DNA of 64,000 bases from a virus (IMGVR_UViG_3300033069_001588:1-64000), one strand, 5' to 3'. Counted from the stretch's first letter, positions 3,384 to 48,771 are shown. A program made the numbers and translations. The notes: generated by a model not told the origin, from the sequence alone.

Positions 3384-3868
3384 TAATGATATCTAGACAA
3401 TATCTAAAAGTACAGCCTAGTAAATTAGGCGGTAATGGTTTATTCACTACTGTAAAAATAAATGCCAGATATCCTATCATAGAGGTTACTGGTGATATTT
3501 TTACATCATCCACTATTACAGATCATCCTGCAATTTTACAAGTAGCCCGTGATTTATTTATAGGTCCATCTGGGGGTCCCGATGACTACGTTAATCATAG
3601 CTGTAATCCCAATTGTTTTCTTTCTATTATGGGCAAAAGAGCAATATTATATTCTTTGTATGTAATACCGCCAGATACAGAATTAACATTTGATTATTCT
3701 AGTAGCTCTACTGATTCATTAGATATTTGGAAAATGGATTGTGCATGCGGTGATGTTAATTGTCGTAAAGTCATTAGTGGATATCAATACCTCACTGATA
3801 AACAAAAGAAAACATTACTTGATTTAGGAGCGATACCTCAGTTCATCAAGAATGGAATTTTTAAATGA
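3371..3868 (+). CDS. SET-domain protein-lysine methyltransferase with post-SET motif
   Basis: GNGLF, YVNHSCNPN, ELTFDY, CACGDVNCR. Confidence 0.9.
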   Translation: MEQIIMISRQYLKVQPSKLGGNGLFTTVKINARYPIIEVTGDIFTSSTITDHPAILQVARDLFIGPSGGPDDYVNHSCNPNCFLSIMGKRAILYSLYVIPPDTELTFDYSSSSTDSLDIWKMDCACGDVNCRKVISGYQYLTDKQKKTLLDLGAIPQFIKNGIFK

Positions 3869-4146
3869 AATATCCTCATACTAGAGTTCTATTAGTAATT
3901 GAGAAATTTCATAAAATGGTAGATAACATTTATGTTAATGACCCAGCCTCTATTAATGAGATTATAGAAGATTATCGTGCGTTTGATATTGCATGCAATG
4001 ATTTAAGACTTGAAATATTAGCTGGAAAATTAGAAAATTCTCTTGATCAAATTGATGAGATAGGAAATAAACAAAAAATCATTAATCATCTTGATGAAAT
4101 GAGACCAACCATAGAAAAAATGATGAGTTTGAAAGCGTTTTGGTGA
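3865..4146 (+). CDS. hypothetical protein with LKAFW C-terminal tag
   Basis: 93 aa, ATGA overlap with SET gene, ends EKMMSLKAFW. Confidence 0.75.
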   Translation: MKYPHTRVLLVIEKFHKMVDNIYVNDPASINEIIEDYRAFDIACNDLRLEILAGKLENSLDQIDEIGNKQKIINHLDEMRPTIEKMMSLKAFW

Positions 4147-4149
4147 ATT

Positions 4150-4785
4150 ATGTCAGGACTTCAATATTATGTTGTTGACACAGAAACTACAGGATTAAAA
4201 GCTAATTTTCATGAAATAACAGAGGTTGGTATTATACGCGCTAAAGATCGTGTACAAATTCACAGATGTGTTAAGTGTGTATATCCTGAGCGCGCCAATT
4301 TTGATGCTTTAGCTATTACTAAGAAAACTATGGCTGATCTAGATAGAGGTCATGATAAATCTGCTGTTATAGCAGAATGTAATAAATTCTTTGAGGAAGA
4401 TGGCGCTACACCAGCACATAGAGTTATTGTGGCTCACAACGCGCCCTTCGATAGAAGATTTCTACATGCCATGTGGGAATCTGAAGGTTTAGAGTTTCCT
4501 GCACATTTATGGTTAGATACTGTATCTTTAACTAAAGCGTATGCTAAAAAAATCGGACTAATTAAACCCAAAGTAGGTTTGCATGCAGCTTGCGATATAG
4601 TTGGAATAAAAAAACTATCAGACGCACATAATGCTAAAGTGGATAGTAGAAATTGTTATTTACTACATCGTAACTTAGTAGAAGAAAAAAAGATAGATTA
4701 TTTACCTTTTATTAAAACAGCTATTCATACGGTTACTTCAAATCAATATTATGAAGGATTAGATTTATCATTACTTGATGATTAA
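4150..4785 (+). CDS. DEDDh 3'-5' exonuclease (DnaQ/Pol III epsilon-like)
   Basis: DTETTG, AHNAPFD, AHNAKVD. Confidence 0.9.
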   Translation: MSGLQYYVVDTETTGLKANFHEITEVGIIRAKDRVQIHRCVKCVYPERANFDALAITKKTMADLDRGHDKSAVIAECNKFFEEDGATPAHRVIVAHNAPFDRRFLHAMWESEGLEFPAHLWLDTVSLTKAYAKKIGLIKPKVGLHAACDIVGIKKLSDAHNAKVDSRNCYLLHRNLVEEKKIDYLPFIKTAIHTVTSNQYYEGLDLSLLDD

Positions 4786-5441
4786 TGAAAACTCCCAGTT
4801 TAGAAAAATTCTATTTCAATATAGATCGAGCAATACGTTTGGCGCAATCTTACTCTGAAATAAAAGAATTGATGTTTATTTTGAAAAGTTGTAGGATGAA
4901 GCCATATTCTATTTTTTATGGAAAAGAAACGCCCAGACTAAAATTATATAAGCATTGGTTTGATGAATTTGGAAATTCTTTACATATTATTAAACGCAAA
5001 AGAGTAAAAATAATCTATAATGATCTCTTACTAAGAAGAAAAGATATTGTTTGTACAGACTTGTATTATGGATTATCTTTTGATAAAATAGTTAAATTGA
5101 GTAAGTTAGTGCATTTAGTGATTGGGAAAAATGAAGATACTCATGAATATTATTTGATGCTAACATTTTATGGTATAGATAATTATCTTAGATCTTATTT
5201 ATATGATGGAGATTGGAGACAAGTGTCCTCATTTATGCTAGGTATGAAAAGATTAAAAAACATACATAAACATGATGACATTAAGTATTTTCATCAATTA
5301 AAAAATTTAGAAAATTTTATGACCCCTTGTACATCGACCGACGAGTGGATATGTTCATTAACGCAGACTGCGGTAGGAGAATTCGTCAAAATTCTCAAGA
5401 AGAAATACGAAATTGATTTTTCGTTTTTAATGTCAAATTGA
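4785..5441 (+). CDS. hypothetical protein
   Basis: 218-aa ORF, TAATG coupling. Confidence 0.7.
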   Translation: MKTPSLEKFYFNIDRAIRLAQSYSEIKELMFILKSCRMKPYSIFYGKETPRLKLYKHWFDEFGNSLHIIKRKRVKIIYNDLLLRRKDIVCTDLYYGLSFDKIVKLSKLVHLVIGKNEDTHEYYLMLTFYGIDNYLRSYLYDGDWRQVSSFMLGMKRLKNIHKHDDIKYFHQLKNLENFMTPCTSTDEWICSLTQTAVGEFVKILKKKYEIDFSFLMSN

Positions 5442-5458
5442 GGTATGATACAATAATC

Positions 5459-5674
5459 ATGACTAATAGAGATAGATTAGAATTACAGGGTGAAGTTGTT
5501 GATGCAAACAAAGGCAAATTCAAAGTCAAGGTTAATGATGCTTTGACTATTCTTTGTACTTTGAGTGGTAAAATTAGAGTAAATTCTGTCAAAATCTTGA
5601 TAGGAGATAAAGTGACAGTGGAAGTATCAGAGTACGATACTTCCCAAGGTCGTATTATTTATAGACTTAAATAA
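5459..5674 (+). CDS. infA: translation initiation factor IF-1
   Basis: 71 aa; G.V......F.V.......LCTLSGKIR...VKIL.GDKV.VE.S.YD...GRIIYR pattern. Confidence 0.93.
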   Translation: MTNRDRLELQGEVVDANKGKFKVKVNDALTILCTLSGKIRVNSVKILIGDKVTVEVSEYDTSQGRIIYRLK

Positions 5675-5677
5675 ATC

Positions 5678-6595: not shown

Positions 6596-6599
6596 TTAA

Positions 6600-7319: not shown

Positions 7320-7350
7320 GATTTCCTCATATCATTTTTAATATGCGGGC

Positions 7351-8519: not shown

Positions 8520-9296
8520 ATGAGTAAAACAGTAGGCGTGTATAAAATTAGTTGTTCTGTTAACAGTAAGATATATATAGGATCTTCTATCAACATTTAT
8601 AAAAGATGGTTTAATCATCGTTATGAATTAAATAACAACAAACACCACGCTAATTATCTGCAACATGCTTGGAATAAATATGGTAAAGACTGTTTTATAT
8701 TTGAAATACTTGAGAAAATAGAAGATGTTTCTGTTTTAATTGAGCGAGAGCAGTATTGGATGGATTATTATCAATCATACAAGCCGGCATATGGATTTAA
8801 TTCCAATTCTAAAGCAGAAGGCAATCATAAAAGAAAATGGACTAAGCAACAAAGAGAGAAATATTCTAAATCTAGAAAAGGCAAGCCGGCTTCCGAAGCA
8901 CTACAAAACGCTTTAAATAATTCAAGAAAAATAGGGTCAAAATCAAATTTATCATCAATTGATGAAAACAAAGTAATACAAATTGTTAACGATATTAATT
9001 CTGGATTAACACCCAATGAAGTATCTAAATTACACAGTGTTGGAATTTCTATTGTCAGATCAATTTGTCAAAAAAGAAATTGGAAACACATATTACAAAA
9101 CTTGACTATAAGAGAAATAGGCACTAAAAGTCAAAGACAGCGGTGCGCCAAATTGAATGAAGAACAAGTAAGAAATATTAAGAAAAGATTAGCTGAAGGA
9201 GAAAATCATCTGACGATAGCTGAAGAATATAATGTTAGTAGGACAACTATATTAGATATCAAGAAAAATAAAACTTGGAAAGATATTACAATATGA
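8520..9296 (+). CDS. GIY-YIG homing endonuclease with C-terminal HTH repeats
   Basis: GVYKI...KIYIGSS...RW..H; REQYW; two C-terminal HTH-like modules. Confidence 0.88.
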   Translation: MSKTVGVYKISCSVNSKIYIGSSINIYKRWFNHRYELNNNKHHANYLQHAWNKYGKDCFIFEILEKIEDVSVLIEREQYWMDYYQSYKPAYGFNSNSKAEGNHKRKWTKQQREKYSKSRKGKPASEALQNALNNSRKIGSKSNLSSIDENKVIQIVNDINSGLTPNEVSKLHSVGISIVRSICQKRNWKHILQNLTIREIGTKSQRQRCAKLNEEQVRNIKKRLAEGENHLTIAEEYNVSRTTILDIKKNKTWKDITI

Positions 9297-10578: not shown

Positions 10579-11232
10579 ATGAAAGATCATACAAATAAAG
10601 TAGAGTTGGTTGGTTTTTACGGATCTGATGAGACACACGCCCTGTCTGCTTGGACCTCCACAGCAAGAGAGATAAATGATGAGAAAAGACAAAGAATGGA
10701 TAAACTATTAAACATGCTGGGCTCAGAAGGTCATCATACACCTTTTGAAAAATCTAGCATACATTTTCTAGTTACCACAGAAGTCAGCGCCCACATTCAT
10801 TTGTTAAAACATAGAATTGGTGTATCTATAAATGCAGAATCAGCGCGTTACAAAGAACTTAAAGATGATAAATACTACATCCCAGAGGATTGGATTTCAG
10901 AAGAAAAAAAAATGTTAATTGATCATTGCGAAGAATCAATTAAAAAATATCATGAATGTTTGGCTCGTTTAGTAAAGAATGGAATGGATAGAAAAAGAGC
11001 CAAAGAAAGTGCGAGATTCTATTTACCGTACGCAAACCAAATAACATCGGATGTCATGTTTAATTTCAGATCATTTATGCATTTTATTTCACTACGTAAT
11101 AGCGCTCATGCTCAGCTAGAGATAAGAAAAGTTGCTCAAAAGATGTTGCAATTAACATGGGAAACAGATGCTTTTCCACTCTCGTTGGCAGCTTTTGGCT
11201 GGACAAAAGATAAAATATATAGTGATATATGA
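10579..11232 (+). CDS. thyX: flavin-dependent thymidylate synthase
   Basis: GHHTPFE, KHRIGVSINAESARY, KESARFYLP, NFRSFMHF..LRN..HAQLEIR. Confidence 0.95.
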   Translation: MKDHTNKVELVGFYGSDETHALSAWTSTAREINDEKRQRMDKLLNMLGSEGHHTPFEKSSIHFLVTTEVSAHIHLLKHRIGVSINAESARYKELKDDKYYIPEDWISEEKKMLIDHCEESIKKYHECLARLVKNGMDRKRAKESARFYLPYANQITSDVMFNFRSFMHFISLRNSAHAQLEIRKVAQKMLQLTWETDAFPLSLAAFGWTKDKIYSDI

Positions 11233-11260
11233 ACTCATATGCATATTTGTATATCATATT

Positions 11261-11989
11261 ATGAAAACTTGGTACGTATATCACATTATAGATCCTGTAA
11301 CAAATGAAGTATTTTATATTGGTAAAGGTTGTGGAAAAAGATACTCCATTCATATGATTCGTGCCCTTAAATGGAGAAAAGATGGCACAATAATTCCTGG
11401 TGGAAATCGTCATCTTTACAATAAATTATTAAAAATAGTTGATGCGGGACTTCAACCAAAATATTCTATTGAATTTGAATCAGAAATAGAAAAACAAGTT
11501 CTTGATAGAGAAGTTATGGACATATCAAAATTTGGAATAGAAAATCTTTGTAATCTTACATATGGTGGTGAAGGAGAAACAAGAACAAAAGAATCTCTGG
11601 AAAAATTATCTCAATCATTAAGAGAATTTTGGGATTCAGAAGATGGTTATTTACTTAGAGAAAAATTTTCTCAAGATAAAATGGGTGATAAAAATCCAAT
11701 GTATGGCACAAAAATGTCTGAAAAAGATAAAAGAATACATGTGGACGCTCTATTATCTGTGCCACGATGGAATAAGGGATTAAAGGGTGACCCACGTTCA
11801 AAAGGACATCATAAAGGCACTCCAGCTAATAATGCTTTACATTGTCGTTTGATACATGAAAATGGGCAGATTTTTGAGGCAAAATCTATGAAAGAATTAT
11901 CAATACTATCTGGTATACCATTAATATCTATTAACAGAATGCGTCAAGGCAAGAAGAATAAAAAGGGCTGGAAGCTAGAAATTATATGA
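11261..11989 (+). CDS. GIY-YIG-family homing endonuclease (NUMOD-like C-terminal motifs)
   Basis: WYVY..IDP....FYIGKG...R, LCNLTYGGEG, GDKNPMYG; ATG at 11261 preferred over ORF-track start 11168. Confidence 0.82.
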   Translation: MKTWYVYHIIDPVTNEVFYIGKGCGKRYSIHMIRALKWRKDGTIIPGGNRHLYNKLLKIVDAGLQPKYSIEFESEIEKQVLDREVMDISKFGIENLCNLTYGGEGETRTKESLEKLSQSLREFWDSEDGYLLREKFSQDKMGDKNPMYGTKMSEKDKRIHVDALLSVPRWNKGLKGDPRSKGHHKGTPANNALHCRLIHENGQIFEAKSMKELSILSGIPLISINRMRQGKKNKKGWKLEII

Positions 11990-21494: not shown

Positions 21495-22043
21495 TTAAGC
21501 GCGCAAAGACAAAATAGAATCTATTAATCTAACTCTTTCTTGCATACTGTCAGTATTAATTTGAAAATATCTTAATTGAAACATTTCGCATAAGAATTTA
21601 ACCTGCGCATCAATAGCGATAATTCCATCCCATGAAAGAGATTCTCTGATTCCATCTTCTTTTAATGTAACTTTAGATGGTCTAACAAAAAAAATATATG
21701 AATCAGGACTTTTCAAATCATTAATATATAATTCTAATTCTTTTGATTTCAATAATTTAGGAAGTATACGAGAATGCTGGGCGGCATAAGCCAAACAATC
21801 AAAACTTCTATCTGAAACAAAACTATCATATTTATTTTCTTGTTCAACTTGTCTGTTGAATATATTAAATTGATAATCGTCCACGACATCTAGATTAGTT
21901 CTCAAAGAATCTAGATGTAGTTCTTTCTCAGATAGAATCATACGAGCCACTTCTGTAATCATAGGCACATCATATTTTTCAGAAACATAACGTGCTAATG
22001 TTGTTTTTCCGCAACTGTGTGCGCCGCATATATACACTTTCAT
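21495..22043 (-). CDS. P-loop NTPase/kinase (AAA_28/NadR-type)
   Basis: GAHSCGKTT, EVAR, SDRS..D..AY, EDGIR. Confidence 0.82.
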   Translation of the reverse strand: MKVYICGAHSCGKTTLARYVSEKYDVPMITEVARMILSEKELHLDSLRTNLDVVDDYQFNIFNRQVEQENKYDSFVSDRSFDCLAYAAQHSRILPKLLKSKELELYINDLKSPDSYIFFVRPSKVTLKEDGIRESLSWDGIIAIDAQVKFLCEMFQLRYFQINTDSMQERVRLIDSILSLRA

Positions 22044-22947: not shown

Positions 22948-23376
22948 TCACCAAAATACTTTCAATTTTATGGCTCGTGAAATTAAATTAGGATCGATAG
23001 AAAAAATATCAATATATTTTTTGAATGGTTTTATCTGTTCGGCAGACATTCCATGCATAAATCCACCTAACAATTCTTCAATGACAATATCATAATCTTT
23101 TCTAGATGTTCCAATACAACAAATATCACCTAGTCTATGTAAAATGGATTTTCCGTATATTTGTATTGAATCCTGATTTTCTTCTTCAGATTCATAAATA
23201 ATGATAATATCTTCTTGTTTCCACTGTGAGCGATGCATGTGCGGCGCATTTGGTATAAAATATATTTTTGAAGTGTCTATATTAAAATCAAAAATAGTTT
23301 TATGAAACATTAGTGTGCTTAAAACTAAATTAATACATCTCATTTCAGCATCTTGTTGTTTCCAATTTAAATCCAT
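22948..23376 (-). CDS. hypothetical protein with LKAFW-type tag
   Basis: Ends SRAIKLKVFW. Confidence 0.72.
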   Translation of the reverse strand: MDLNWKQQDAEMRCINLVLSTLMFHKTIFDFNIDTSKIYFIPNAPHMHRSQWKQEDIIIIYESEEENQDSIQIYGKSILHRLGDICCIGTSRKDYDIVIEELLGGFMHGMSAEQIKPFKKYIDIFSIDPNLISRAIKLKVFW

Positions 23377-23384: not shown

Positions 23385-23867
23385 TTATACGAACGCCTTT
23401 AGCTTTTCAAATTTTTGTAGAATGTAGAGAGTTTCATCTTCACTTAACGTGAACACCATTAAGTACACGTCTTTGTATTCATCGCCATGAGGACAATCAT
23501 AATCATTTGCAAATTGATAATCGACATAATATATGGGTATTTTGTCTTTACCATACTTTTCATAAATAGATCCTGACCAACCTCTTTTATTCAAACATTG
23601 TAATATATCTTTGCCAGCATTTACTTTATCTTGAGTCTTGTAGATAGCGGTAATACAGAAATTTTCATCAAATTTCTTATGAAAATCTACAAACTCTTTT
23701 AGATATCCATAAGTAATAGGCTTTCTATTTTTTAACAAATCAGTAATGGATAATGATTCTGTCAGTAAATACTTAGATGTTAACTCTCGCCATAAATCTT
23801 TGGCTTTTTCTTCAGCCTTTTGATTTATGAATTCATCATTGTGTTTCAGTGATTTACGTCTGGACAT
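23385..23867 (-). CDS. hypothetical protein with LKAFW-type tag
   Basis: Ends QKFEKLKAFV. Confidence 0.72.
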   Translation of the reverse strand: MSRRKSLKHNDEFINQKAEEKAKDLWRELTSKYLLTESLSITDLLKNRKPITYGYLKEFVDFHKKFDENFCITAIYKTQDKVNAGKDILQCLNKRGWSGSIYEKYGKDKIPIYYVDYQFANDYDCPHGDEYKDVYLMVFTLSEDETLYILQKFEKLKAFV

Positions 23868-24033: not shown

Positions 24034-24363
24034 TCACAAGAATAGCTTAAGCTTTTTGAATCTATTCCATCTATGCCAAAAATCTTTTACATCTGCACAA
24101 ATAACATGTTTCTCTTTGTTATCAGGTAATTGATACAGCCAAGGATATAAATGACTAGACCAAATAATAGACGGAAATGTTGTAGCTCCCACTTGTCGTC
24201 CTTTAACAATTACCTTGATATTGGGATCAGGTTTGAAAACTTTCTTGGGAATAGGTATAAAGAAATTCTTTCTTTCACAGGGCAAAAGTTTCATAAACTC
24301 AATCCACAATTCATGAGGGTATCTTTCTATTTCTTGTTTGATTTCAATCCACGGATCATTCAT
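24034..24363 (-). CDS. hypothetical protein with terminase-like Walker A fragment and LKAFW-type tag
   Basis: ATGA-coupled start at 24363; VIVKGRQVGATT; ends DFWHRWNRFKKLKLFL. Confidence 0.68.
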   Translation of the reverse strand: MNDPWIEIKQEIERYPHELWIEFMKLLPCERKNFFIPIPKKVFKPDPNIKVIVKGRQVGATTFPSIIWSSHLYPWLYQLPDNKEKHVICADVKDFWHRWNRFKKLKLFL

Positions 24364-24719
24364 ACAAATGACCTCACTCTGGAAAACTTTTTCCATCTCT
24401 TCCAAAATTCTTCTGGAGTCTCATATCTAATATGTTCAGTCGTATATTCTTCTTTTATCGTTTTTAATTCTACACCTTGATTTTTAGCAACCTTCATCTT
24501 GACAGCAATAATATTTTGCTCAGTTACATACTCTTTGTTTCTTACTTCTATGGTATGCGCCGGATTCTTACAAGGGAAAAGCTCTTCGAATTTTCTTATG
24601 ATTTTCCAGGAGACTTTAGACAATTCTTCGTCGATGAGCCTATTCGCTCTGCGTGCCTCACGATGCTCTTCGCCATACTTTTCGTCATCTTCTGTATAAA
24701 TTACAACATCATCAGCCAT
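24360..24719 (-). CDS. hypothetical protein with LKAFW-type tag variant
   Basis: Ends EFWKRWKKFSRVRSFV. Confidence 0.68.
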   Translation of the reverse strand: MADDVVIYTEDDEKYGEEHREARRANRLIDEELSKVSWKIIRKFEELFPCKNPAHTIEVRNKEYVTEQNIIAVKMKVAKNQGVELKTIKEEYTTEHIRYETPEEFWKRWKKFSRVRSFV

Positions 24720-25069
24720 GTCAACACCTTATTCCTTACATTTGTTGGGGAAATTGCTAAACATTGATCGTACGAATATATTACGCCACCCTGAACCAAA
24801 TTGGTTTTGTTCTTCAATAAATCTAATTCAACGGTGTAATTCTTTTCGTTACTTTGGGTATCAATTTCTATTCTAACCAGAATATCATTCAATCCAATAT
24901 ACTGACAACTACAAGATTTACAATAGTAATATGATTTGATCGGTGATAGTAGATGAGCTTTTATACTGTTTTTACAGTACAAACAATCAAAATACTTACC
25001 CTTTCTTTCTTTGATTTTATCTGGAGAATTATTTTCTCCAGATACAAATACTAAATCAGATTCCATCAT
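24701..25069 (-). CDS. zinc-ribbon hypothetical protein
   Basis: CLYC...CKSC; hydrophobic C-terminus KVLTWLMML. Confidence 0.65.
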   Translation of the reverse strand: MMESDLVFVSGENNSPDKIKERKGKYFDCLYCKNSIKAHLLSPIKSYYYCKSCSCQYIGLNDILVRIEIDTQSNEKNYTVELDLLKNKTNLVQGGVIYSYDQCLAISPTNVRNKVLTWLMML

Positions 25070-30747: not shown

Positions 30748-31371
30748 TTATACTGCAATATTGTTCTTCATAATAGCAAGCGCGTTGTTGATTGTTTTAA
30801 TGCAGCTTAGCCTAGATATGCTTAACTTTTTACATATCTTATTAATAGATATTGGTTTGTCTCCATCAAACCCATATGCCAAATTGATAATTTCTTTTTG
30901 TTCACCTGTTAAGACAGAAAAAGCATTTTGAATAGCATTATTCAATTGAGATTCTTCTAATTCTTTGTCTGGACAATATCTTTCTTCTATCAAAGTAGGC
31001 ATAATAGCCTCTTTGTGTGGAGTATTGTTCTTTGCAACCTTCAAAGGATATCTAATAGTAGTGTGTAAATTGGCACTTCTGGAAATACGAGTATCAATAT
31101 ACTTATGCGCCCACCAAAAGAAAGAGCCCTTTTTTGGGTTGTAATTATTCATGGCTTTGATTAAAGCCTCAAAACCTTCTTGATTCAAATCATCGTAATT
31201 GCTAAATGCTTTATAACGACCAGTTTTCATAGTAACTAAATACTTAAAATTCTGAATACAAATCTTTTCATGTTTTTTAAGCTCTACCTCAATTTGAGGA
31301 TCAGTCTTAGATTTAGATCTTAGATCTATTAATTTGATCATTAAGTCTTGTGCTTCTTGTTCTGTTAACAT
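30748..31371 (-). CDS. RNA polymerase sigma factor (sigma-70 family, regions 2 and 4)
   Basis: DDLNQEG..ALIKA..NYNPKKGSF.WWA; region 4 L...QKEII.L.YG...I.KKL.ISR. Confidence 0.88.
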   Translation of the reverse strand: MLTEQEAQDLMIKLIDLRSKSKTDPQIEVELKKHEKICIQNFKYLVTMKTGRYKAFSNYDDLNQEGFEALIKAMNNYNPKKGSFFWWAHKYIDTRISRSANLHTTIRYPLKVAKNNTPHKEAIMPTLIEERYCPDKELEESQLNNAIQNAFSVLTGEQKEIINLAYGFDGDKPISINKICKKLSISRLSCIKTINNALAIMKNNIAV

Positions 31372-33022: not shown

Positions 33023-33403
33023 TTACAAAAATACTAATAAACCTCTTTCATAAATATCTACAAATTTATGAAACTCTTGTAATGAATTACAATCAAATCT
33101 TTTGCCCTTGTAACACCAATTCAATGGATATCCGTTAATTTCTTGTGCGGGACCGTCATTACGATGTAATAACCCATTTTCGTAATAGTTAATAATACCT
33201 TCTTTAGGTTGTATAAAAGCTGGTGCGCCTACTCTATGAAGTTTACCATATTGAAGCCACGCTTTAGCACCAGGTAATGCCAAACAATTTTCACTATATT
33301 CAATTGCTGGAAGATCATCATCTCTATGTACATAACCATCTTTATAATACACTTTGGTGCCATCTTCTAATATTTCTATGCCATTTTTAGTTTCATTCGT
33401 CAT
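33023..33403 (-). CDS. LHRxDGPA-repeat (MORN-variant-like) protein with tag variant
   Basis: VHRDDDLPAI, LHRVGAPA, LHRNDGPA; ends EFHKFVDIYERGLLVFL. Confidence 0.75.
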   Translation of the reverse strand: MTNETKNGIEILEDGTKVYYKDGYVHRDDDLPAIEYSENCLALPGAKAWLQYGKLHRVGAPAFIQPKEGIINYYENGLLHRNDGPAQEINGYPLNWCYKGKRFDCNSLQEFHKFVDIYERGLLVFL

Positions 33404-33581: not shown

Positions 33582-33926
33582 TCACCAAAATGCTTTTAAT
33601 TCAAAATATCTTTGTAGATCTATAACAGATTGTTTGACACAAAGATTAATTATATGACTTAATTCTGCTCTTTTATCAGAAGAAATTACTTGGCTTTCTA
33701 GGAATGCTCTACAATGTTCGCTGATCTCAGTGTTCTCTGGTAACAGTTTGCTGCGTTTAAGATCAGCCAATCTAAATAGATAAAGCTCATCACAACAACT
33801 AAAACCAATCAGTAATCTTTTATGCTGATCATTTGATAAAAATTTATGATCAACAGACTCAATTCGTAGATGATTAACGTATTTCTCAATCATATCAAAA
33901 AATGATACACACATTATTTCGTTCAT
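33582..33926 (-). CDS. hypothetical protein with LKAFW C-terminal tag
   Basis: Ends QRYFELKAFW. Confidence 0.72.
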   Translation of the reverse strand: MNEIMCVSFFDMIEKYVNHLRIESVDHKFLSNDQHKRLLIGFSCCDELYLFRLADLKRSKLLPENTEISEHCRAFLESQVISSDKRAELSHIINLCVKQSVIDLQRYFELKAFW

Positions 33927-36052: not shown

Positions 36053-36416
36053 AGGTCACTTTCTTTACATCACCATTAACATGATGATCCTTAAGCTTTT
36101 CTGCAATGATTTTCTTTTCCTGTTCATTCAAAAGTGTTTTCAACTCAGCCATGTTTTTGAGTCTTAATTCATCATTACTTGGTTTGGTTAATTCTTCTTC
36201 AAATTGAGTAGATAAATCATTTTTTATTTTAATGGGTTCTTTTAGTATAATTTTGATTACCACTATATCTTGTGCTGAATGCTGGATAATATAAACAGAT
36301 GTATCATCTAAAGATCGTAATACTGATTTAGCATCCGACCATGATTCCACAATTCCATCAATTATCAAATTGTTGCGCAATAAACATCTAATATGTTGTC
36401 CTTTTTGCGGAATCAT
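36012..36416 (-). CDS. hypothetical protein
   Basis: 134-aa ORF; beta-rich N-terminus plus coiled coil. Confidence 0.7.
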   Translation of the reverse strand: MIPQKGQHIRCLLRNNLIIDGIVESWSDAKSVLRSLDDTSVYIIQHSAQDIVVIKIILKEPIKIKNDLSTQFEEELTKPSNDELRLKNMAELKTLLNEQEKKIIAEKLKDHHVNGDVKKVTYEQPGFFPKPRAQ

Positions 36417-36754
36417 ATGAATGCCTTTATGTTTACTATTCTTTCCATTTTGACAAGCAAGTTATCAAGAGTTTCCTCAGTATGTACAAAACAACAAATC
36501 ACATCATCAGATATCTGTGGATTGTGTATGTAAAAACATATAATCTTATCAAAACTTTGATCTAAGTCATCTGGAAAATCTAGAAAAGATGTTAAGAACT
36601 TCATGTTACCTTGTATGTAACTCTTAACATCTTCTTCTATTGTTTCTAGTTTGGCAGTTGCCATACCCCACTTGATATTCAGTGAAGGTAATATTTGATG
36701 AGGCGACATTCCACTAAGTTTTTTGGCATGCTTTGCATAAGATTCTAAAATCAT
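36413..36754 (-). CDS. hypothetical protein with LKAFW-type tag
   Basis: ATGA-coupled both sides; ends ERIVNIKAFI. Confidence 0.72.
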   Translation of the reverse strand: MILESYAKHAKKLSGMSPHQILPSLNIKWGMATAKLETIEEDVKSYIQGNMKFLTSFLDFPDDLDQSFDKIICFYIHNPQISDDVICCFVHTEETLDNLLVKMERIVNIKAFI

Positions 36755-39156: not shown

Positions 39157-39799
39157 TATTTTCTCCCATATGACGGACCATGTTTGCTCCATCTATAATA
39201 TTTTGTTTAGCAGAATAAGGTCTTAAATTTTCCAATGACCAACACTTCTTGAAATTTTCATCTTCCATAGAAGCATATGGCAAATCTGAACGTGGAATAA
39301 TGTGATCTATATTCCATTTCCACGTAGATGAATCATTGTCTTTCCATATTCTATGATCATAAATTCCTTGATTTTCCCAATTCATCCAAGATTCAAATTG
39401 TTTTTCCAAATGTAACTTCAATTCTTGAATTGTATATGGTAAAAATTTAGATTTCGAATTACCATTTTTAGAAGTATTATATTTTTTAAGAGATTTATTT
39501 ATGACTGATGATATAATGCCATTTAACCTAAATACAGGGTCTAACTTTCTTCTCTCATTAACATAACTTCGTCTATTTTTAGCAACTGATTCTTTATTAT
39601 TTTTCCTATATTTTCTAAGGTATTCTTTTAGAGAATCAGTATGAACCGAATCATACTGATTCTTGTATTTTTTAATGTGATCGGAATTATTTCTTCTCCA
39701 TTGATCTTTATACTGCTTATTGCAAAATCGACACCAAGTTTGATTTTTCCCAAAATCAAACTCATTTTTATCAAGATTACAACGAGAACAGTATTTCAT
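39122..39799 (-). CDS. HNH-family homing endonuclease with N-terminal CxxC motifs
   Basis: CSRC...CRFC; WNIDHIIP...CWSLENLRP....N. Confidence 0.82.
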   Translation of the reverse strand: MKYCSRCNLDKNEFDFGKNQTWCRFCNKQYKDQWRRNNSDHIKKYKNQYDSVHTDSLKEYLRKYRKNNKESVAKNRRSYVNERRKLDPVFRLNGIISSVINKSLKKYNTSKNGNSKSKFLPYTIQELKLHLEKQFESWMNWENQGIYDHRIWKDNDSSTWKWNIDHIIPRSDLPYASMEDENFKKCWSLENLRPYSAKQNIIDGANMVRHMGENNEDQRVNCPII

Positions 39800-41163
39800 T
39801 TGCGACGATCTACAACTCCACCCATAAGCTTACCAAATGCGGAAGACTTGGCAGCGATTTTTTCCTTGATTTTTTGGGCGGCAGACACGGTGTCATTAGT
39901 TCCAGTATCCAACTGTAAAGTTAGGTTTCTGGATTCATCCTTAGTCTTAACCTTGGATTGTAATTCTTTAGTCTCACTCTTAAGTTGCTCAACTCTAACA
40001 GAAGGCAAACCTAATCCGGAGAACATAGAATAAACTTTGACTGTATCTTCTGGAGAATCAATCACATACATACCCTTGAACACACCCTTTGGATTTCCAC
40101 ACAAATCATTGATCATGCTGCTAGCATAGTTAACACTAGATGCTGGAATTTTTGACCAAACATTTTTGTTGGCGGCAATAATGAATCCAACATACTTTGA
40201 TTGCTTAAGATCAAATCCTTCAGCCAAAAGATTTCCAGAAAGGTTGTTGATAACAGCCTCAGCAATAGCGGTATCTTCTTGATAATTCTCTACAGAGAAT
40301 TCTCCATAGACACTTAATCCTTCACCATCAATGAAGAGCTTTGACCATTCCATAGGATCCAATGCTTTGGTTGAAGATGGCATGGAGGAAAGAGTATTGA
40401 ACATATCAATTGGGTCTACGATAGCTTTATTAGCTACACTGTAGAAATCCATTTGACCAACATGATGATAGATAGTTTCTATCTTGGCATTATCTACCAC
40501 AATCAAATTATTCACTTTTTTGGATTGTGCCATCTTAGCCAATTTGGATAAGGTTTCTAAAGCATTGCTTTTGGTTTGAGCATCTTCCGTGTCCATTGGT
40601 AAAACGGTAATAACTACCAATGGTTTGCCTAATTCTGACAATAGCTCAACCAAAGTTTCGCATGAACCTGCGCCAGAGCCTCCACCCAAACTCAAGCATA
40701 ATAGATTGACTTGAGAAGAGCTTAGCTTATCATTGACTAATTGTAAAATCTCACCACGATGAGCTTCGGCGGCGGCTTTTCCAATTTCAATTTCCTTGGC
40801 AGCGCCACCCAAACCATACTCTAACAATAGCTTATTAGAATCTGGAATATCAATAAACTTAAGATCCTGCATAGCGGTGTTTACTACTATTGAATCGTAT
40901 CCAAGTTTGTAAAATGCTTCTGCAATTCTTGAACCAGCCTGACCAGAGCCTAACACTCCTAGTGCTAGACTTCTTTCCTTCTTTGAAACAATCTTAGATG
41001 CCATCTTTGCCTCGGCTTTTGCTTGATTTTCTTGTTGTCTTGCTTGACTTTTTGCTTTAAGTGCGGCTAATTTATCTTGTTGTTCTTTTTCTTCGTTGTT
41101 ATCTGTCATATCATCAATCACTTCTTCTGGTTTGTCTTGTTGTATAGAATGTTTAACTGACAT
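39796..41163 (-). CDS. tubulin/FtsZ-family GTPase (PhuZ/TubZ/CetZ-like)
   Basis: GSGQAGSRIA, VNTA..D, GGAAKE...G, signature LGGGSGAG, LP...E, VDN, LDPME. Confidence 0.9.
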   Translation of the reverse strand: MSVKHSIQQDKPEEVIDDMTDNNEEKEQQDKLAALKAKSQARQQENQAKAEAKMASKIVSKKERSLALGVLGSGQAGSRIAEAFYKLGYDSIVVNTAMQDLKFIDIPDSNKLLLEYGLGGAAKEIEIGKAAAEAHRGEILQLVNDKLSSSQVNLLCLSLGGGSGAGSCETLVELLSELGKPLVVITVLPMDTEDAQTKSNALETLSKLAKMAQSKKVNNLIVVDNAKIETIYHHVGQMDFYSVANKAIVDPIDMFNTLSSMPSSTKALDPMEWSKLFIDGEGLSVYGEFSVENYQEDTAIAEAVINNLSGNLLAEGFDLKQSKYVGFIIAANKNVWSKIPASSVNYASSMINDLCGNPKGVFKGMYVIDSPEDTVKVYSMFSGLGLPSVRVEQLKSETKELQSKVKTKDESRNLTLQLDTGTNDTVSAAQKIKEKIAAKSSAFGKLMGGVVDRRK

Positions 41164-41741: not shown

Positions 41742-42431
41742 TTATCTCCAAGTCTTACCAGAAACTATATTTCCTATTGTTGTTGCAGTAACATTATATT
41801 TCTTACTAAGATCCACTTTTGTATAATTACCAGTTTTCCACTCTTCTCTAATTTTCAAAACTATCTCTAGATTAAGTTTAGCATGAGGGTTATTTTCCCC
41901 GGCAACCCTATTTTTTGAAGATTTCCCTATCTTTTTCTTAGTTTCATCAGAATGTATTCTACCATAGAACGGGTTTCCAGATCCAGAAAATTTCTTGCTT
42001 AACTTATTTTTTGTATCTTGTGCATGTGTTTTGCCATACATTGGATTTTTCTCACTGCCTACTCGCAGGGACATTCTTTCTTTATCTTCACTGGATAAAA
42101 TTACGGTATGTGTAGATCCACTTTTTTCGTTATATCCATATGTATCATCACATGAATTATAAAAATTGATCCAATACAATTCTTTTTCACATGATTCATA
42201 ATAATTATCAACTTTTTCGAAAACTTCAAAAGTAAAATTATTATGTCCTAATTCATTTATTGCTTTATGAATTTTTTGGACTTTTGATGATATTGGGTTA
42301 ATACCAAAGGATAAATGTTGTCTTTTTCTATAAGAAGGTACTTTTGTTCTGCCAATATAAATCTTATTATTTACAGTATTAGTTATTTTGTATATGTAAA
42401 AGGTCTCTTCAAAAGGACAAATATAATTCAT
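41742..42431 (-). CDS. GIY-YIG homing endonuclease with NUMOD3 motifs
   Basis: YIYKITN..N.KIYIG.T, GYN, NPMYGKTH, NPFYGRIHS.ETKKKI; ATGA-coupled start. Confidence 0.88.
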   Translation of the reverse strand: MNYICPFEETFYIYKITNTVNNKIYIGRTKVPSYRKRQHLSFGINPISSKVQKIHKAINELGHNNFTFEVFEKVDNYYESCEKELYWINFYNSCDDTYGYNEKSGSTHTVILSSEDKERMSLRVGSEKNPMYGKTHAQDTKNKLSKKFSGSGNPFYGRIHSDETKKKIGKSSKNRVAGENNPHAKLNLEIVLKIREEWKTGNYTKVDLSKKYNVTATTIGNIVSGKTWR

Positions 42432-43387
42432 TTCAAAAACCACTGATTGTTCAAATACCATTGAACCGTATCTTGTATACCATCTTTGAACTTGTAAGAT
42501 GGTATCCAGCCCAATTCTCTAATTTTCTGAGAATTAACACCATGTCTGAAATCATGTCCAGATCTAGGATCGGTTATATGATTTATCAAATTATGCCCAT
42601 ATCCCACAGCATTACAAACTTTTTGAACCACCTCTATATTCGTTAATTCCTGACCGGCTGAAATGTTATAGATTTGATTAGGCTCACCTTTATTCAAGAC
42701 TGTCAGAATTGCCGAACAATTGTCAAATACATGAGTCCAATCTCTTATCTGCAATCCCCGACCATAGATAGGGATCTTATTCTCATGCAGAATACCCTTA
42801 ATCGCCTTGGGAATCAACTTTTCCGGCGTCTGGCGTGGACCATAGTTATTGGAGCTTCTGGTAATGTTATAAATTAGACCATGAGATTGGTGGGCTGCTT
42901 TAACCAACATCTCTCCAGCAGCTTTAGTGACAGCATAGGGGCTTCTTGGATTTAAGGACGAATCTTCGGTCCAGAGAGGATCATGTTCACTCTTTAACTG
43001 TCCATAAACACTATCTGTGGAAACATAAATTAATCTTTCTACTTTGTGTTTTAGACAAGCATTGATAATAACCTGCGTCCCCAAAACATTAGAAGTGACG
43101 AAAGAATTAGGGTCACTTAAAGATGAATCTATAAAAGTTTCAGCCGCCCCATGAATCACAATATCAGGCTTCTCGAATTGAAAAATGACATCTATGATAT
43201 GTTGGTCTCTTATATCAGCTACATGAAAAGTATGATTCTTATTCCAATACATAGAGTTAATGGCATTAGCACTTACTCTATCTAAACTAACAAATTGATA
43301 TGGATGTTTTTCATAAATGGCTTTTCTAACGAAATTGCCAAAGATGAAACCACAAGAACCAGTTATTAAAACTTTTTTCTTACTCAT
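42428..43387 (-). CDS. rfbB: dTDP-glucose 4,6-dehydratase-like extended SDR
   Basis: ITGSCGFI, H.AAE, TSNVLGT, STDSVYG, PRSPYAVTKA, SNNYGP.Q.PEKLIP, IRDW, R.GHD.R. Confidence 0.85.
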   Translation of the reverse strand: MSKKKVLITGSCGFIFGNFVRKAIYEKHPYQFVSLDRVSANAINSMYWNKNHTFHVADIRDQHIIDVIFQFEKPDIVIHGAAETFIDSSLSDPNSFVTSNVLGTQVIINACLKHKVERLIYVSTDSVYGQLKSEHDPLWTEDSSLNPRSPYAVTKAAGEMLVKAAHQSHGLIYNITRSSNNYGPRQTPEKLIPKAIKGILHENKIPIYGRGLQIRDWTHVFDNCSAILTVLNKGEPNQIYNISAGQELTNIEVVQKVCNAVGYGHNLINHITDPRSGHDFRHGVNSQKIRELGWIPSYKFKDGIQDTVQWYLNNQWFLK

Positions 43388-43581: not shown

Positions 43582-43586
43582 GTTTG

Positions 43587-45466: not shown

Positions 45467-45481
45467 AATATAATCTCCAAT

Positions 45482-45820
45482 TTAGAAAAATAATTTCAAA
45501 TCATGAATACGAATCAGAAAACTGTCCAGCTTCTTCCGAACACTTTCTATATGAGTCATTCCAGATAAATCCGGAGATCCGCATTTGTTCAATACGTTAC
45601 ACTTACCAGCAAATCTAATTTTGTAATTGTATTCGTATGTAGAATCATCTAAACGTTTAACGCTTCTTTTCAGTTCCAAAAAATTATTGTAATCAACATT
45701 CTCGCACGAATCAGAAGCCAATAAAGGTTTTATCCACATATCTTCTCTCATAGAGGTGGAATACAATTTCCATTTACCAAACTGGAAACTGCCAACTTTT
45801 ATAGTTTGCTGCTCTTCCAT
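45482..45820 (-). CDS. hypothetical protein with LKAFW-type tag
   Basis: Ends FLIRIHDLKLFF. Confidence 0.7.
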   Translation of the reverse strand: MEEQQTIKVGSFQFGKWKLYSTSMREDMWIKPLLASDSCENVDYNNFLELKRSVKRLDDSTYEYNYKIRFAGKCNVLNKCGSPDLSGMTHIESVRKKLDSFLIRIHDLKLFF

Positions 45821-45822
45821 TA

Positions 45823-46038: not shown

Positions 46039-46041
46039 AAT

Positions 46042-47178: not shown

Positions 47179-47224
47179 TTGATACCTATCAATATTTGTT
47201 CATAAATCATAAGGAGTACAAAGT

Positions 47225-48079
47225 ATGGGGAGACCTTCCAAATTAAATATAGCACAACAAAATAGAATTATTAACCTTTATGTAAAAGATAAGTTGTCAA
47301 CAAATAAAATTTCAAAAATGTTTGGCGTAGCAACGGCAACAATAAATAATATCTTAACAAGGCATAATATACAACTTAGAAGTGGTTCAGAAACTAATAA
47401 ATTATCAACAAAATTTACATTTACCACTATGAATGAAGAAAAATCTTTTCTCCTGGGATTAATATATGGTGATGGTTCAATTAGTAAGAGAAATGATTAT
47501 ATCAATATCACATCTGGTGATTTAGATTTATTAGAGAAATCTAAACTCATTTTAGGAGATAAATTCAAAATTAGAAAAGTTGCCGATCAGAATTGTCATC
47601 GCGGCATTATCAATAGTCATAAATTATGTGAAGAATTATTTTTGCTTTTCAAATTAACAAATAACAAAAGTGATAAGCTTGCGTTTCCTAATCTAGAACC
47701 ACAACTTTATCCATCTTTCATTTCAGGATATTTAGCCACCGATGGATGCATAAATATTAACAAAAAAGACAATTTAATTGTATTATCTTTTTATTCTTGT
47801 TCTAAACAATTCTTAGAAGATTTGAATGTATTTTTGTGTGATAAAACACAACAAAAATATCGAACCATATACGAAAGAAAAACTATCAAAGGTCATTTGG
47901 GTAAAAAACCATTATACACATTAGTTTTTAATGGTGCCAAAGCAGAAAAAGCACTTGAGTATATTTTTTCAGATAAAGATAAATCGATTAGATGTGATAG
48001 AAAATACAATATATATGAAAAATTCATTCAAACAAAGATTAACAAATTAAGCACTCGGATAAATTCGGATTCGGAATAA
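47225..48079 (+). CDS. free-standing LAGLIDADG homing endonuclease with N-terminal HTH, opposite orientation to neighbours
   Basis: FLLGLIYGDG and FISGYLATDG; AAGGAG SD. Confidence 0.87.
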   Translation: MGRPSKLNIAQQNRIINLYVKDKLSTNKISKMFGVATATINNILTRHNIQLRSGSETNKLSTKFTFTTMNEEKSFLLGLIYGDGSISKRNDYINITSGDLDLLEKSKLILGDKFKIRKVADQNCHRGIINSHKLCEELFLLFKLTNNKSDKLAFPNLEPQLYPSFISGYLATDGCININKKDNLIVLSFYSCSKQFLEDLNVFLCDKTQQKYRTIYERKTIKGHLGKKPLYTLVFNGAKAEKALEYIFSDKDKSIRCDRKYNIYEKFIQTKINKLSTRINSDSE

Positions 48080-48294
48080 TTCTTACCTTCAAATAAGAAT
48101 ATGTTATCAACAACGTCGTGAATTAAAAATGGTACAGAATCAGAATTAATAGTTCTATAATAATACGTATATCTATACACCTCTTCTTTGAAAATAGGTA
48201 ATCCGAAAGCAATTTTTATGATTTTATCTATCCCTTCAATTTCTTTCATATCTAGATCAAATCTTTTATCAATAATATAAAAAATATTAGTCAT
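48028..48294 (-). CDS. small hypothetical protein, tandem paralog 3, tag variant
   Basis: Ends YSESEFIRVLNLLIFV. Confidence 0.7.
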   Translation of the reverse strand: MTNIFYIIDKRFDLDMKEIEGIDKIIKIAFGLPIFKEEVYRYTYYYRTINSDSVPFLIHDVVDNIFLFEGKNYSESEFIRVLNLLIFV

Positions 48295-48515
48295 ACAAAA
48301 ATTAATAGATCCAAAATTCTAGAAAATTCCTTTTCCGGGAATTCTTTATCAGAAAACAATACTTTTTGATTTTTCAGATCATGAATTATTGTACAATGTC
48401 TCTTATTAGAAGTAACACAATTATAATACACATATCTTTTATCCGAAGACAAAAATGTATAAATTTCTTTGCTGAATTTATTGTTTATTAACTTGTACAA
48501 AGTAAAATAGTTCAT
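48291..48515 (-). CDS. small hypothetical protein, tandem paralog 2, tag variant
   Basis: Ends FPEKEFSRILDLLIFV. Confidence 0.7.
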   Translation of the reverse strand: MNYFTLYKLINNKFSKEIYTFLSSDKRYVYYNCVTSNKRHCTIIHDLKNQKVLFSDKEFPEKEFSRILDLLIFV

Positions 48516-48531
48516 GTCGAACCCTATATCA

Positions 48532-48771
48532 TCAGGTAAAAACTAATAGATCGAGCAGCCTGCAAAACTCATCTTCAGAGTAAACTTGCTGTTCATACTC
48601 GAAAGTATTGTTTACTGTATTTTGTACGAAAAATGGTTTAGTATTCGGAGTTATTTTGTTAAAACTCTCCGTATAAACCATAATCAGCTTCTTGTCGTTT
48701 GGGTTAAAACCAAACAAAAAAAAATATGGCAATACTTTTTCCATCTTTTCTCTGACTTTTCCATAAATCAT
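48532..48771 (-). CDS. small hypothetical protein, tandem paralog 1, tag variant
   Basis: Ends YSEDEFCRLLDLLVFT; the ORF-track TTG start at 48816 is the -35 box, so a downstream ATG (48771) is preferred. Confidence 0.68.
   Translation of the reverse strand: MIYGKVREKMEKVLPYFFLFGFNPNDKKLIMVYTESFNKITPNTKPFFVQNTVNNTFEYEQQVYSEDEFCRLLDLLVFT

What the first reader, a model, noticed from the sequence alone, without database searches (positions are those of the whole stretch)
3865..48771. A shared C-terminal 'LKAFW' peptide tag on at least 13 mostly unrelated small phage proteins: candidate undescribed protein-sorting or degradation system
Seen: ORFs with no other similarity (apart from the 48028-48771 triplet and the tails of 24034/24360) end in the same pattern right before the stop: 3865 EKMMSLKAFW; 11986 HKILNLKAFW; 22948 SRAIKLKVFW; 23385 QKFEKLKAFV; 24034 NRFKKLKLFL; 24360 KKFSRVRSFV; 33023 YERGLLVFL; 33582 QRYFELKAFW; 36413 ERIVNIKAFI; 45482 IRIHDLKLFF; 48028 EFIRVLNLLIFV; 48291 EFSRILDLLIFV; 48532 EFCRLLDLLVFT; 24701 KVLTWLMML is a weaker variant. 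Consensus: amphipathic helix (often E/D-F-x-R/K-h-h) then L-K/L-A/V/I/L-F-hydrophobic-COOH, with Phe penultimate in all 13. Codons vary synonymously (TTG/TTA/CTA/CTT; AAA/AAG; GCG/GCA; TTT/TTC; TAA/TGA), so selection acts on the peptide, not on a DNA site. No recognisable enzyme or structural gene here carries it; only 70-165-aa accessory proteins do, interspersed among core genes on both strands. Established: free hydrophobic C-termini are read by PDZ/TPR domains and tail-specific proteases, and T4 uses C-terminal hydrophobic clamp-binding motifs. Inference: one receptor (phage capsid-loading, ejection or compartment-import factor, hub protein or host protease) handles a whole class of effectors through this tag. 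I know of no description of this motif.
Basis: partly seen in the sequence, partly recalled or inferred. Interest (0 to 1): 0.92.

Follow-up and report, generated by a model that had tools for sequence, protein, structure and literature searches.

The report
Shared C-terminal tag on megaphage proteins
Thirteen small, mostly unrelated proteins in this fragment of a ~450-kb phage, and 4-12% of all genes in its complete relatives, end in the same strictly C-terminal peptide (…L-K-A-F-W/L), which behaves like an address label read by a partner that I could not identify.

Summary
In the 101-kb contig, L-K-[AVLI]-F-Φ ends 7 of 106 ORFs and occurs at 0 of 32,322 internal positions. The looser form ends 13 ORFs against 0.1 expected. 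All carriers are 74-163 aa.

The contig is a quarter of a ~450-kb myovirus. Complete relatives carry the tag on 30/719, 22/743 and 94/770 genes. One 473-kb relative has none, and one 435-kb relative has its own variant (C-x-[RK]-L-x-V-[MF]-L) on 35/700 genes.

The tag sits at the very end, has a nearly invariant penultimate Phe and a basic residue at -9, varies in its codons, and was found in viral but not cellular contigs. The 159 carriers fall into 107 body families, and two predicted folds differ. Only the last ~23 residues are shared.

I found no reader. The phages encode no PDZ domain, sliding clamp or proteasome. They do encode tandem ClpP and a YjoB-like AAA+ protein, whose presence only loosely tracks the tag.

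Best reading: a docking or address tag read by one cytoplasmic partner, perhaps an AAA+/Clp machine. This is inference only.

The scan has noted analogous shared tails with other motifs in other phages, and part of this one on the same genome (e1-5938389).

The parts
3865..4146 (+). tagged ORF, 93 aa, ends LKAFW
   Evidence: orthologues in G1 and G3 keep the tag at 58% and 32% identity
11986..12477 (+). tagged ORF, 163 aa, ends LKAFW
   Evidence: a 187-aa relative in G002 ends the same way; no Pfam or PHROG match
22948..23376 (-). tagged ORF, 142 aa, ends LKVFW
23385..23867 (-). tagged ORF, 160 aa, ends LKAFV
   Evidence: 91% identical orthologue in G1 carries the same tail
24034..24405 (-). 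tagged ORF, up to 123 aa (TTG start; overlaps the next ORF), ends LKLFL; paralogue of 24360
   Evidence: (E 2e-6 to 24360)
24360..24719 (-). tagged ORF, 119 aa, ends RSFV
   Evidence: AF2 model gives an alpha/beta fold with helix 102-115 and the last 4 residues as coil
33023..33403 (-). tagged ORF, 126 aa, MORN-like HRxDGPA repeats, ends LVFL
   Evidence: AF2 mean pLDDT 93, beta hairpins plus helix 108-119, last ~7 residues coil; weak MORN fold matches
33582..33926 (-). tagged ORF, 114 aa, ends LKAFW, next to the DnaB-like helicase
36413..36754 (-). tagged ORF, 113 aa, ends IKAFI; its ends overlap the neighbouring genes between the helicase loader and a helicase
45482..45820 (-). tagged ORF, 112 aa, ends LKLFF
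48028..48294 (-). tagged ORF, 88 aa, ends LLIFV; one of three tandem paralogues
   Evidence: E 1e-10 to 1e-11
48291..48515 (-). tagged ORF, 74 aa, ends LLIFV; tandem paralogue
48532..48816 (-). tagged ORF, 94 aa, ends LLVFT; tandem paralogue

Best explanation
The tail is a short linear docking ('address') motif. It consists of the last turn of a C-terminal helix carrying R/K at -9, K/N at -6, L/M at -5 and K at -4, followed by an extended small-residue, Phe, hydrophobic-residue ending with a free carboxylate. One cytoplasmic reader recognises it and so handles a large, fast-turning-over set of otherwise unrelated small accessory proteins as a class. I put this general claim at about 65%. Shown: strict terminality, position-specific conservation, peptide-level selection, diversity of the protein bodies, restriction to viruses, and a lineage-specific variant. 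Inferred: that a reader exists at all. The tag would then work like the ssrA degron or an HbYX-type tail, marking early accessory proteins for timed unfolding, degradation or chaperoning. The phage lineage encodes tandem ClpP1/ClpP2 and a YjoB-like single-ring AAA+ protein.
For: Tag properties expected of a motif read at a free C-terminus:
- It sits at the end in 35 cases, against 0-1 cases when followed by 1-5 residues.
- F at -2 is nearly invariant while -1 varies, which is the Hb-Y-X logic.
- A conserved basic residue at -9 makes the tag bipartite, like ssrA.
- Two AF2 models place the final 4-7 residues outside the helix with lower confidence.

A class of carriers rather than one family:
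- 159 carriers fall into 107 jackhmmer body families.
- The two models have different folds, and profile comparison aligns only the last 23 columns.
- 144 carriers have almost no Pfam or PHROG match.

Co-variation with lineage:
- 94/770 genes in G026 and 30/719 in G001 carry the tag, against 0/768 in G004.
- G014 has its own consensus on 35/700 genes against 0.47 expected.

Carriers are cytoplasmic: none has a TM segment and 1 of 159 has a signal-peptide-like start.

Candidate machine:
- Full-length tandem ClpP genes (E about 1e-48) lie away from the head genes in relatives.
- The YjoB-like AAA+ protein is present in all five tag-rich complete genomes and absent from tagless G004 and from G017, which shows no tag excess.
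- 5 of the 29 genes shared by tag-bearing genomes but absent from G004 lie in the 14-kb ClpP neighbourhood.
Against: No binding, stability or localisation data exist. ClpP1/P2 are also present in tagless G004. The YjoB-like AAA+ protein is also present in tag-poor G011, has no IGF/LGF-type ClpP-docking loop that I could see, and resembles YjoB only over the AAA domain. No ClpX- or ClpA-like unfoldase was found in the tag-bearing genomes. The phyletic test rests on very few independent genomes.
Confidence: 0.3

Rival explanations
1. Docking on one host hub. The tagged proteins are host-takeover effectors that all bind a single host protein, such as the beta sliding clamp, FtsZ/FtsA, RNA polymerase or a host protease adaptor. 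The lineage-specific tag variants would follow different hosts.
For: The carriers are small, fast-evolving and sit in early-type operons with replication genes. The lineage with the variant tag has 48% GC against 30-36% for the others, which suggests another host. The L(-5)-x-x-F(-2)-Φ(-1) spacing resembles a PIP box. No phage-encoded reader was found.
Against: It is hard to see why up to 94 different proteins in one genome should compete for one host site. The motif lacks the Gln of clamp-binding motifs. No replication enzyme carries it. The host is unknown.
Confidence: 0.2
2. Sorting signal. The tag loads the proteins into the capsid for co-injection, as the T4 capsid-targeting sequence or an encapsulin cargo peptide does, or into another phage-built compartment.
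For: T-even internal proteins are the closest phage precedent: a highly diverse set of defence-countering proteins that share only a conserved targeting sequence (PMC3012670). The carriers here are small, diverse and turn over quickly. The phage has a very large head and a tubulin homologue.
Against: The tagged genes lie in replication and nucleotide-metabolism operons, and none lies in the structural module. Some overlap replisome genes at their start and stop codons. The tag is C-terminal and shows no sign of a protease site. No virion proteome exists.
Confidence: 0.15
3. No common reader. The tail is the only conserved piece (a strand-helix-tail structural or self-association module) of rapidly diversifying multigene families that expanded separately in each lineage.
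For: Many carriers form tandem arrays, up to ten in a row in G026. The shared module extends to about 23 residues and may be homologous (hhalign probability 86%). The helix is modelled with high confidence (block-mean pLDDT about 90-95). The S-x-E-E-F helix start is intrinsic to the wider MORN-like family.
Against: A structural role does not explain why the motif must be the exact C-terminus, or why the most conserved residues lie in the part modelled as unstructured. Two different folds carry it. Most members of the wider MORN-like family lack the tag proper. Orthologues in G004 lack it.
Confidence: 0.15
4. Membrane-targeting amphipathic helix of the MinD/FtsA type.
For: The tail has basic and aromatic residues at a C-terminus, with a mean net charge of +2 over the last 12 residues.
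Against: The helical hydrophobic moment of the last 12 residues is 0.28, against 0.26 for internal 12-mers of the same proteins. The tag is strictly terminal and its positions are conserved individually (F at -2, R/K at -9), which a lipid-binding helix does not need.
Confidence: 0.04
5. A nucleic-acid signal (ribosome-binding site, terminator or recombination site) that happens to be translated.
For: The W codon followed by a TGA stop gives GGTGA, which resembles a Shine-Dalgarno sequence ahead of some downstream starts.
Against: Every position uses several synonymous codons, Ser appears as both TCN and AGT, and all three stop codons occur. The reversed-pattern control gave zero hits in all 26 genomes.
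Confidence: 0.01

Closest known systems
ssrA tag and other C-terminal ClpX/ClpA degrons (with the SspB adaptor)
   Same: A short peptide that must sit at the free C-terminus, has a non-polar end, is bipartite (an upstream part plus the terminal residues), and directs unrelated proteins to one AAA+ machine. The phage lineage encodes ClpP1/P2.
   Different: The sequence is unrelated to …LAA. The tag is encoded in the genes rather than added by tmRNA, and no tmRNA was found. No ClpX-like partner was identified. Degradation has not been shown.
HbYX motif of proteasome activators (PMC10349142, PMC12352868)
   Same: Hydrophobic residue, aromatic residue, then almost any residue at the exact C-terminus, carried by unrelated proteins that dock into one pocket. 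The penultimate aromatic residue is the invariant one.
   Different: Phe replaces Tyr (1 Tyr in 53). No proteasome or HslV homologue is present in five complete genomes. The conserved part here extends to -9.
Capsid-targeting sequence of T-even internal proteins (PMC3012670)
   Same: In a large myovirus, a diverse and fast-changing set of small proteins shares only a short terminal tag.
   Different: The T4 tag is N-terminal, binds the scaffolding core and is cleaved off. Here the tag is C-terminal, the genes sit among replication genes, and packaging is untested.
PIP box and other sliding-clamp-binding peptides (own knowledge)
   Same: Often C-terminal; the spacing L-x-x-aromatic-aromatic/hydrophobic matches; many clients share one hub.
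   Different: There is no Gln at the first position. No clamp gene was found in the phages. None of the carriers is a recognisable DNA enzyme.
PTS1 (…SKL-COOH, read by the Pex5 TPR domain), encapsulin cargo-loading peptides and microcompartment encapsulation peptides (own knowledge)
   Same: Terminal peptides or short helices that sort unrelated proteins into a compartment. PTS1 also requires the free carboxylate.
   Different: The sequences differ. No compartment, TPR-type receptor or shell protein has been linked to this tag.

Membership tests
ssrA-like / ClpX C-terminal degron | Signal works only at the free C-terminus | tested here: met
   35 tags at the exact end, against 0-1 tags followed by 1-5 residues
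ssrA-like / ClpX C-terminal degron | Terminal residues of the LAA type (or the MuA-type basic …KKAI ending) | tested here: not met
   The consensus is K-[AV]-F-[WLI]; no LAA-type ending was seen
ssrA-like / ClpX C-terminal degron | A cognate unfoldase and protease are available | tested here: inconclusive
   ClpP1/P2 are present in relatives. No ClpX- or ClpA-like gene is present in the tag-bearing genomes. The host is unknown.
ssrA-like / ClpX C-terminal degron | Tag-dependent degradation | not testable with these tools
   Needs a stability assay
HbYX motif | Hydrophobic-Tyr-any at the C-terminus | tested here: not met
   Position -3 is A/V/L/I and -1 is variable, as in HbYX, but -2 is Phe in 45 of 53 and Tyr in 1
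HbYX motif | A 20S proteasome or HslV ring as partner | tested here: not met
   PF00227 has no match in G001, G003, G026, G014 or G004. A host partner cannot be excluded.
PIP box / clamp-binding motif | Q-x-x-[LIM]-x-x-[FY]-[FY], or QL[SD]LF | tested here: not met
   L/M at -5 and F at -2 fit, but -8 is hydrophobic rather than Gln
PIP box / clamp-binding motif | A clamp is encoded and the clients are DNA enzymes | tested here: not met
   No beta-clamp, gp45 or PCNA match. Of 144 carriers, only one matches an HNH/endonuclease VII family.
T4-type capsid-targeting sequence | N-terminal leader removed by the prohead protease | tested here: not met
   The tag is at the C-terminus
T4-type capsid-targeting sequence | Carriers are found in the virion | not testable with these tools
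   No proteome exists. The genes lie outside the structural module.
   P-1 (Phe) is the most conserved position. PDZ_2 has no match in five genomes. 1 of 159 carriers has a signal-peptide-like start.
MinD/FtsA-type membrane-targeting helix | Strongly amphipathic terminal helix whose exact sequence and end position are free to vary | tested here: not met
   Hydrophobic moment is 0.28, against 0.26 for the internal control. Terminality is strict.
MORN-like HRxDGPA repeat proteins (applies to ORF 33023 only) | Repeats of the HRxDGPA type forming beta hairpins | tested here: met
   Alignment A1; AF2 model; weak MORN1/MORN4 fold matches; 32,902 relatives in the profile search, most of them without the tag

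The most novel reading that the evidence does not exclude
A clade of ~450-kb phages runs its own proteome-wide address system. Between 4% and 12% of its genes carry a lineage-specific, strictly C-terminal tag. A dedicated phage-encoded machine reads the tag and either sorts the carriers (into the capsid or another compartment) or destroys them on schedule.
Probability: 0.2. Interest if true: 0.9.

Novelty: new variant of a known kind. Interest (0 to 1): 0.66.

Why it matters
If one reader handles this class, the tag gives a direct handle on dozens of proteins of unknown function in huge phages. A single peptide pull-down could identify the machine, and every tagged gene would then be a candidate client. 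It would also be a natural, portable C-terminal tag of about 12 residues for targeting proteins during phage infection. The contrast between genomes with 0%, 4% and 12% tagged genes, together with a variant tag in a sister lineage, provides a ready comparative system for studying how a tag and its reader co-evolve.

Tried and rejected
- **Function of the carriers:** Pfam and PHROGs on the window's carriers gave nothing. On 144 carriers from relatives they gave one HNH/endonuclease VII hit and one zinc ribbon. The ESM Atlas search on ORF 11986 gave only weak glycosyltransferase leads.
- **Cultured relatives:** megablast and tblastn against the cultured-phage collection found no close relative.
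- **Literature:** a search for the motif string returned only noise, and a search on huge phages with shared motifs found nothing relevant.
- **tmRNA carrying a similar tag:** none found.
- **Reader candidates searched and not found:** beta clamp, PDZ_2, gp45 clamp and PCNA, proteasome/HslV.
it was first weakened because it is present in G014. It was then partly rescued when G014 proved to have a variant tag. It is still present in tag-poor G011.
- **Differential gene content:** the top genes conserved between G1 and G3 but absent from G4 are HNH, a Dam-like methylase, a 2H phosphoesterase and ThyX. The shortlist of genes shared by tag-bearing genomes but absent from G4 contains NAMPT and ADP-ribosylglycohydrolases. 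None is a plausible reader.
- **Degenerate K-x-F-Φ-stop DNA pattern across 26 genomes:** too noisy in AT-rich DNA to score weakly tagged genomes.
- **dN/dS of tail versus body:** not obtained, because the script machine was lost.


Full report
**What the window is.** The window is the first 64 kb of a 101,449-bp IMG/VR viral contig that CheckV rates 24% complete. It has 31-36% GC. Its genes include:
- a DnaB-like helicase, a helicase loader, a second helicase, ribonucleotide reductase, PhoH, ThyX and a sigma-like protein;
- a tubulin/PhuZ-like protein;
- many homing endonucleases;
- beyond 48.8 kb, very large ORFs of 1,333-2,378 aa that another first-stage note on this genome reads as tail and baseplate genes.

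The helicase finds relatives on contigs of 433-473 kb, three of them rated 100% complete and one with terminal repeats. The window is therefore a quarter of a ~450-kb myovirus. It has no close cultured relative.

- L-K-[AVLI]-F-[WVLIF] ends 7 of 106 ORFs and occurs at none of 32,322 internal positions.
- The loose form ends 13 ORFs against 0.11 expected. All 13 are among the 47 ORFs of 170 aa or less.
- I defined the tag by four positions and read the fifth. Phe fills -2 in 45 of 53 cases.
- The tag is at the exact end 35 times, and 0-1 times when followed by one to five residues.
- Position -9, never part of a search pattern, is Arg or Lys in 46 of 51.
- Codons vary at every position, including Ser as TCN and AGT and all three stop codons. 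Selection therefore acts on the peptide.

**The carriers are not one gene family.**
- Within the window only two paralogue groups exist: 24034/24360 and the 48-kb triplet.
- Over four genomes, 159 carriers fall into 119 BLAST families and 107 jackhmmer families once the tail is removed. Of these, 95 are singletons.
- AF2 gives ORF 33023 a MORN-like all-beta fold (mean pLDDT 93) and ORF 24360 an alpha/beta fold (mean pLDDT 69).
- A profile-profile comparison of their two families aligns only the last 23 columns (probability 86%).
- Of 144 carriers, one matches an HNH/endonuclease VII family and one a zinc ribbon. The rest match nothing.

**Anatomy of the tag.**
- Reading from the end: Φ(-11), R/K(-9), Φ(-8), K/N(-6), L/M(-5), K or L(-4), A/V(-3), F(-2), W/L/I/V(-1). 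There is often an acidic helix cap of the S-x-E-E-F type further upstream.
- In both models a helix ends 4-7 residues before the C-terminus. The last residues are coil with lower confidence.
- The carriers have no transmembrane segment, and only 1 of 159 has a signal-peptide-like start.
- The tail has a mean net charge of +2. Its helical hydrophobic moment (0.28) equals that of internal 12-mers (0.26).
- The proteins are therefore cytoplasmic, and the tail is not a lipid-binding helix.

**Relatives.** A 12-residue scoring matrix (threshold 8 bits) gave the following:

| Genome | Tagged genes |
|---|---|
| This contig | 11 (plus 2 overlapped ORFs) |
| G001 (97% helicase identity) | 30/719 |
| G003 | 22/743 |
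| G026 | 94/770 (12%, often in tandem arrays) |
| G004 (473 kb, 48% helicase identity) | 0/768 |

- Internal windows reach the threshold 10-16 times per ~130,000 in the complete genomes (once in 31,293 in this contig).
- Orthologues at 30-40% identity keep the tail. Pooled identity is 56% in the last 12 residues, against 37% in the body.
- Two homologues in G004 lack the tail.
- Only about nine of the carriers in G001 have a detectable orthologue in G003, so the carrier set turns over quickly.
- G014 (435 kb, 48% GC, 48% helicase identity) scored as tagless at first. It then proved to have its own variant, C(-8)-x-[RK]-[LF]-x-[VA]-[MF]-L, on 35 of 700 genes against 0.47 expected. G004 has 0 by the same pattern.
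- G011 (73% helicase identity, 79% complete) has only a few tags, of an L-L-[IV]-F-S type.
- The consensus is therefore uniform within a lineage and differs between lineages.

**Restriction to viruses.**
- One codon version of L-K-A-F-W-stop has 93 matches in IMG/VR. Of the 80 read, 32 end ORFs of at least 40 aa, and 29 of those have R/K at -9.
- The K-A-F-W-stop pattern is present in seven of 26 related contigs. It is absent from every relative with 59% helicise identity or less. The reversed control gave zero hits everywhere.
- A recurrent carrier family is a small MORN-like HRxDGPA-repeat protein.
- That repeat family is huge (32,902 representatives). Most members, including the long ones, lack the tag proper although they may keep the helix start.
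- The tag is thus a specialisation of the phage members.

- *Families not found.* The phage genomes have no match to the beta clamp, gp45 clamp, PCNA, PDZ_2 or proteasome/HslV families. No tmRNA was found.
- *Clp and AAA+ genes.* All four complete genomes searched (G001-G004) encode two tandem, full-length ClpP genes next to an FtsK-like ATPase and a type IA topoisomerase. Only G004 has a ClpC/ClpB-like unfoldase.
- *The YjoB-like AAA+ protein.* A 438-aa AAA+ protein has the B. subtilis chambered chaperone YjoB as its best solved relative (PMC9565160).
  - It is present in G001, G002, G003, G026 and G014.
  - It is absent from G004 and G017.
  - It is also present in tag-poor G011.
  - It has no obvious ClpP-docking loop.
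- *Differential gene content.* Of 29 genes shared by tag-bearing genomes and absent from G004, five lie in the 14-kb ClpP neighbourhood. The others I examined are NAMPT and ADP-ribosylglycohydrolases.
- *Verdict.* This is a weak lead, not an identification.

**Mechanism.** Three properties are what a docking motif read at a free C-terminus by one partner would show:
- strict terminality;
- an invariant penultimate aromatic residue beside a variable last residue;
- a second conserved basic position nine residues from the end.

I put that general reading at about 65%.

| Reading | My estimate | Main grounds |
|---|---|---|
| AAA+/Clp-type handling (degron or chaperone hand-over) | about 30% | Formal likeness to the ssrA and HbYX tags, plus the phage's own ClpP and AAA+ genes |
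| Docking on a host hub | about 20% | See rival explanations |
| Sorting into the capsid or a compartment | about 15% | See rival explanations |
| A purely structural module without a reader | about 15% | Fits poorly with the requirement for the exact end, and with the fact that the most conserved residues are the unstructured ones |
| Membrane targeting | a few percent | Effectively excluded |
| A nucleic-acid signal | about 1% | Effectively excluded |

**Comparison and novelty.** The principle of a shared terminal peptide read by one partner is well known from ssrA, HbYX, the PIP box, PTS1, the T4 capsid-targeting sequence (PMC3012670) and encapsulin cargo peptides. This motif meets the defining sequence of none of them. 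I found no description of it. This scan has reported analogous shared tails with different sequences in other phages, and part of this one on the same genome. Later checks of those reports upheld the observations, though not always in full, and priced the single-reader reading low. I share that caution.

**Limits.**
- Genes were called by a simple longest-ORF rule.
- Only five relatives were read in full and one (G011) as a 79%-complete contig.
- The host is unknown.
- The script machine was lost before dN/dS could be computed.

Noticed in passing
relatives G001 (L011-L016, 0-120 kb) and G003 (L034-L037 and L054-L056): A segment of roughly 120-130 kb in these ~450-kb genomes has 42-55% GC, against 31-36% in most of the rest. 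It holds short ORFs on mixed strands and no tagged genes. IMG/VR labels G001 a 'provirus'. The segment could be foreign DNA, a misassembly or a differently coded region.
   Followed up: no
relatives G001 and G003 (whole records): ARAGORN finds 56 and 41 tRNA genes, including two and one tRNAs with a CUA anticodon (amber suppressors). It finds none in this 101-kb contig, only 6 in G004, and no tmRNA anywhere. The large ORFs of the window are intact under the standard code.
   Followed up: no
G001 301-312 kb (L026); syntenic in G002, G003 and G004: A cluster holds two tandem full-length ClpP genes, a DUF192 protein, an FtsK/SpoIIIE-like ATPase, a type IA topoisomerase and a YjoB-like AAA+ protein. 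The last is missing at the syntenic site in G004.
   Followed up: partly
window 39796-41163 (-): A 455-aa protein has a weak match to the phage tubulin PhuZ family (PHROG E 3e-8), in a phage that also has a sigma-like gene at 30748-31371.
   Followed up: no
window 1384-2313, 8520-9296, 11168-11989, 22040-22888, 41742-42461, 47225-48079, 52841-53755: Homing-endonuclease-like genes are unusually dense: HNH-type, GIY-YIG and LAGLIDADG. One of them (52841-53755) sits between two giant ORFs of the late, structural-looking region.
   Followed up: no
window 3371-3868 (+) and 25056-25859 (-): The window holds a SET-domain protein (E 4e-11) and an M24 methionine-aminopeptidase-like protein (E 3e-30). 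Both lie directly beside tagged ORFs.
   Followed up: no
G001 382.5-386.2 kb and 405.9-406.5 kb (L030, L031): There is a nicotinamide phosphoribosyltransferase (E 7e-173 to solved NAMPT-family proteins) and two ADP-ribosylglycohydrolase-like genes. They are present in G003, G026 and G014 and absent from G004 and G011. They may serve NAD salvage or reversal of ADP-ribosylation.
   Followed up: partly
G026 429-433 kb (L415) and 51-53 kb (L396): Tandem arrays of up to ten consecutive tagged genes of about 90-115 aa. This looks like local gene-family expansion of tag carriers.
   Followed up: partly
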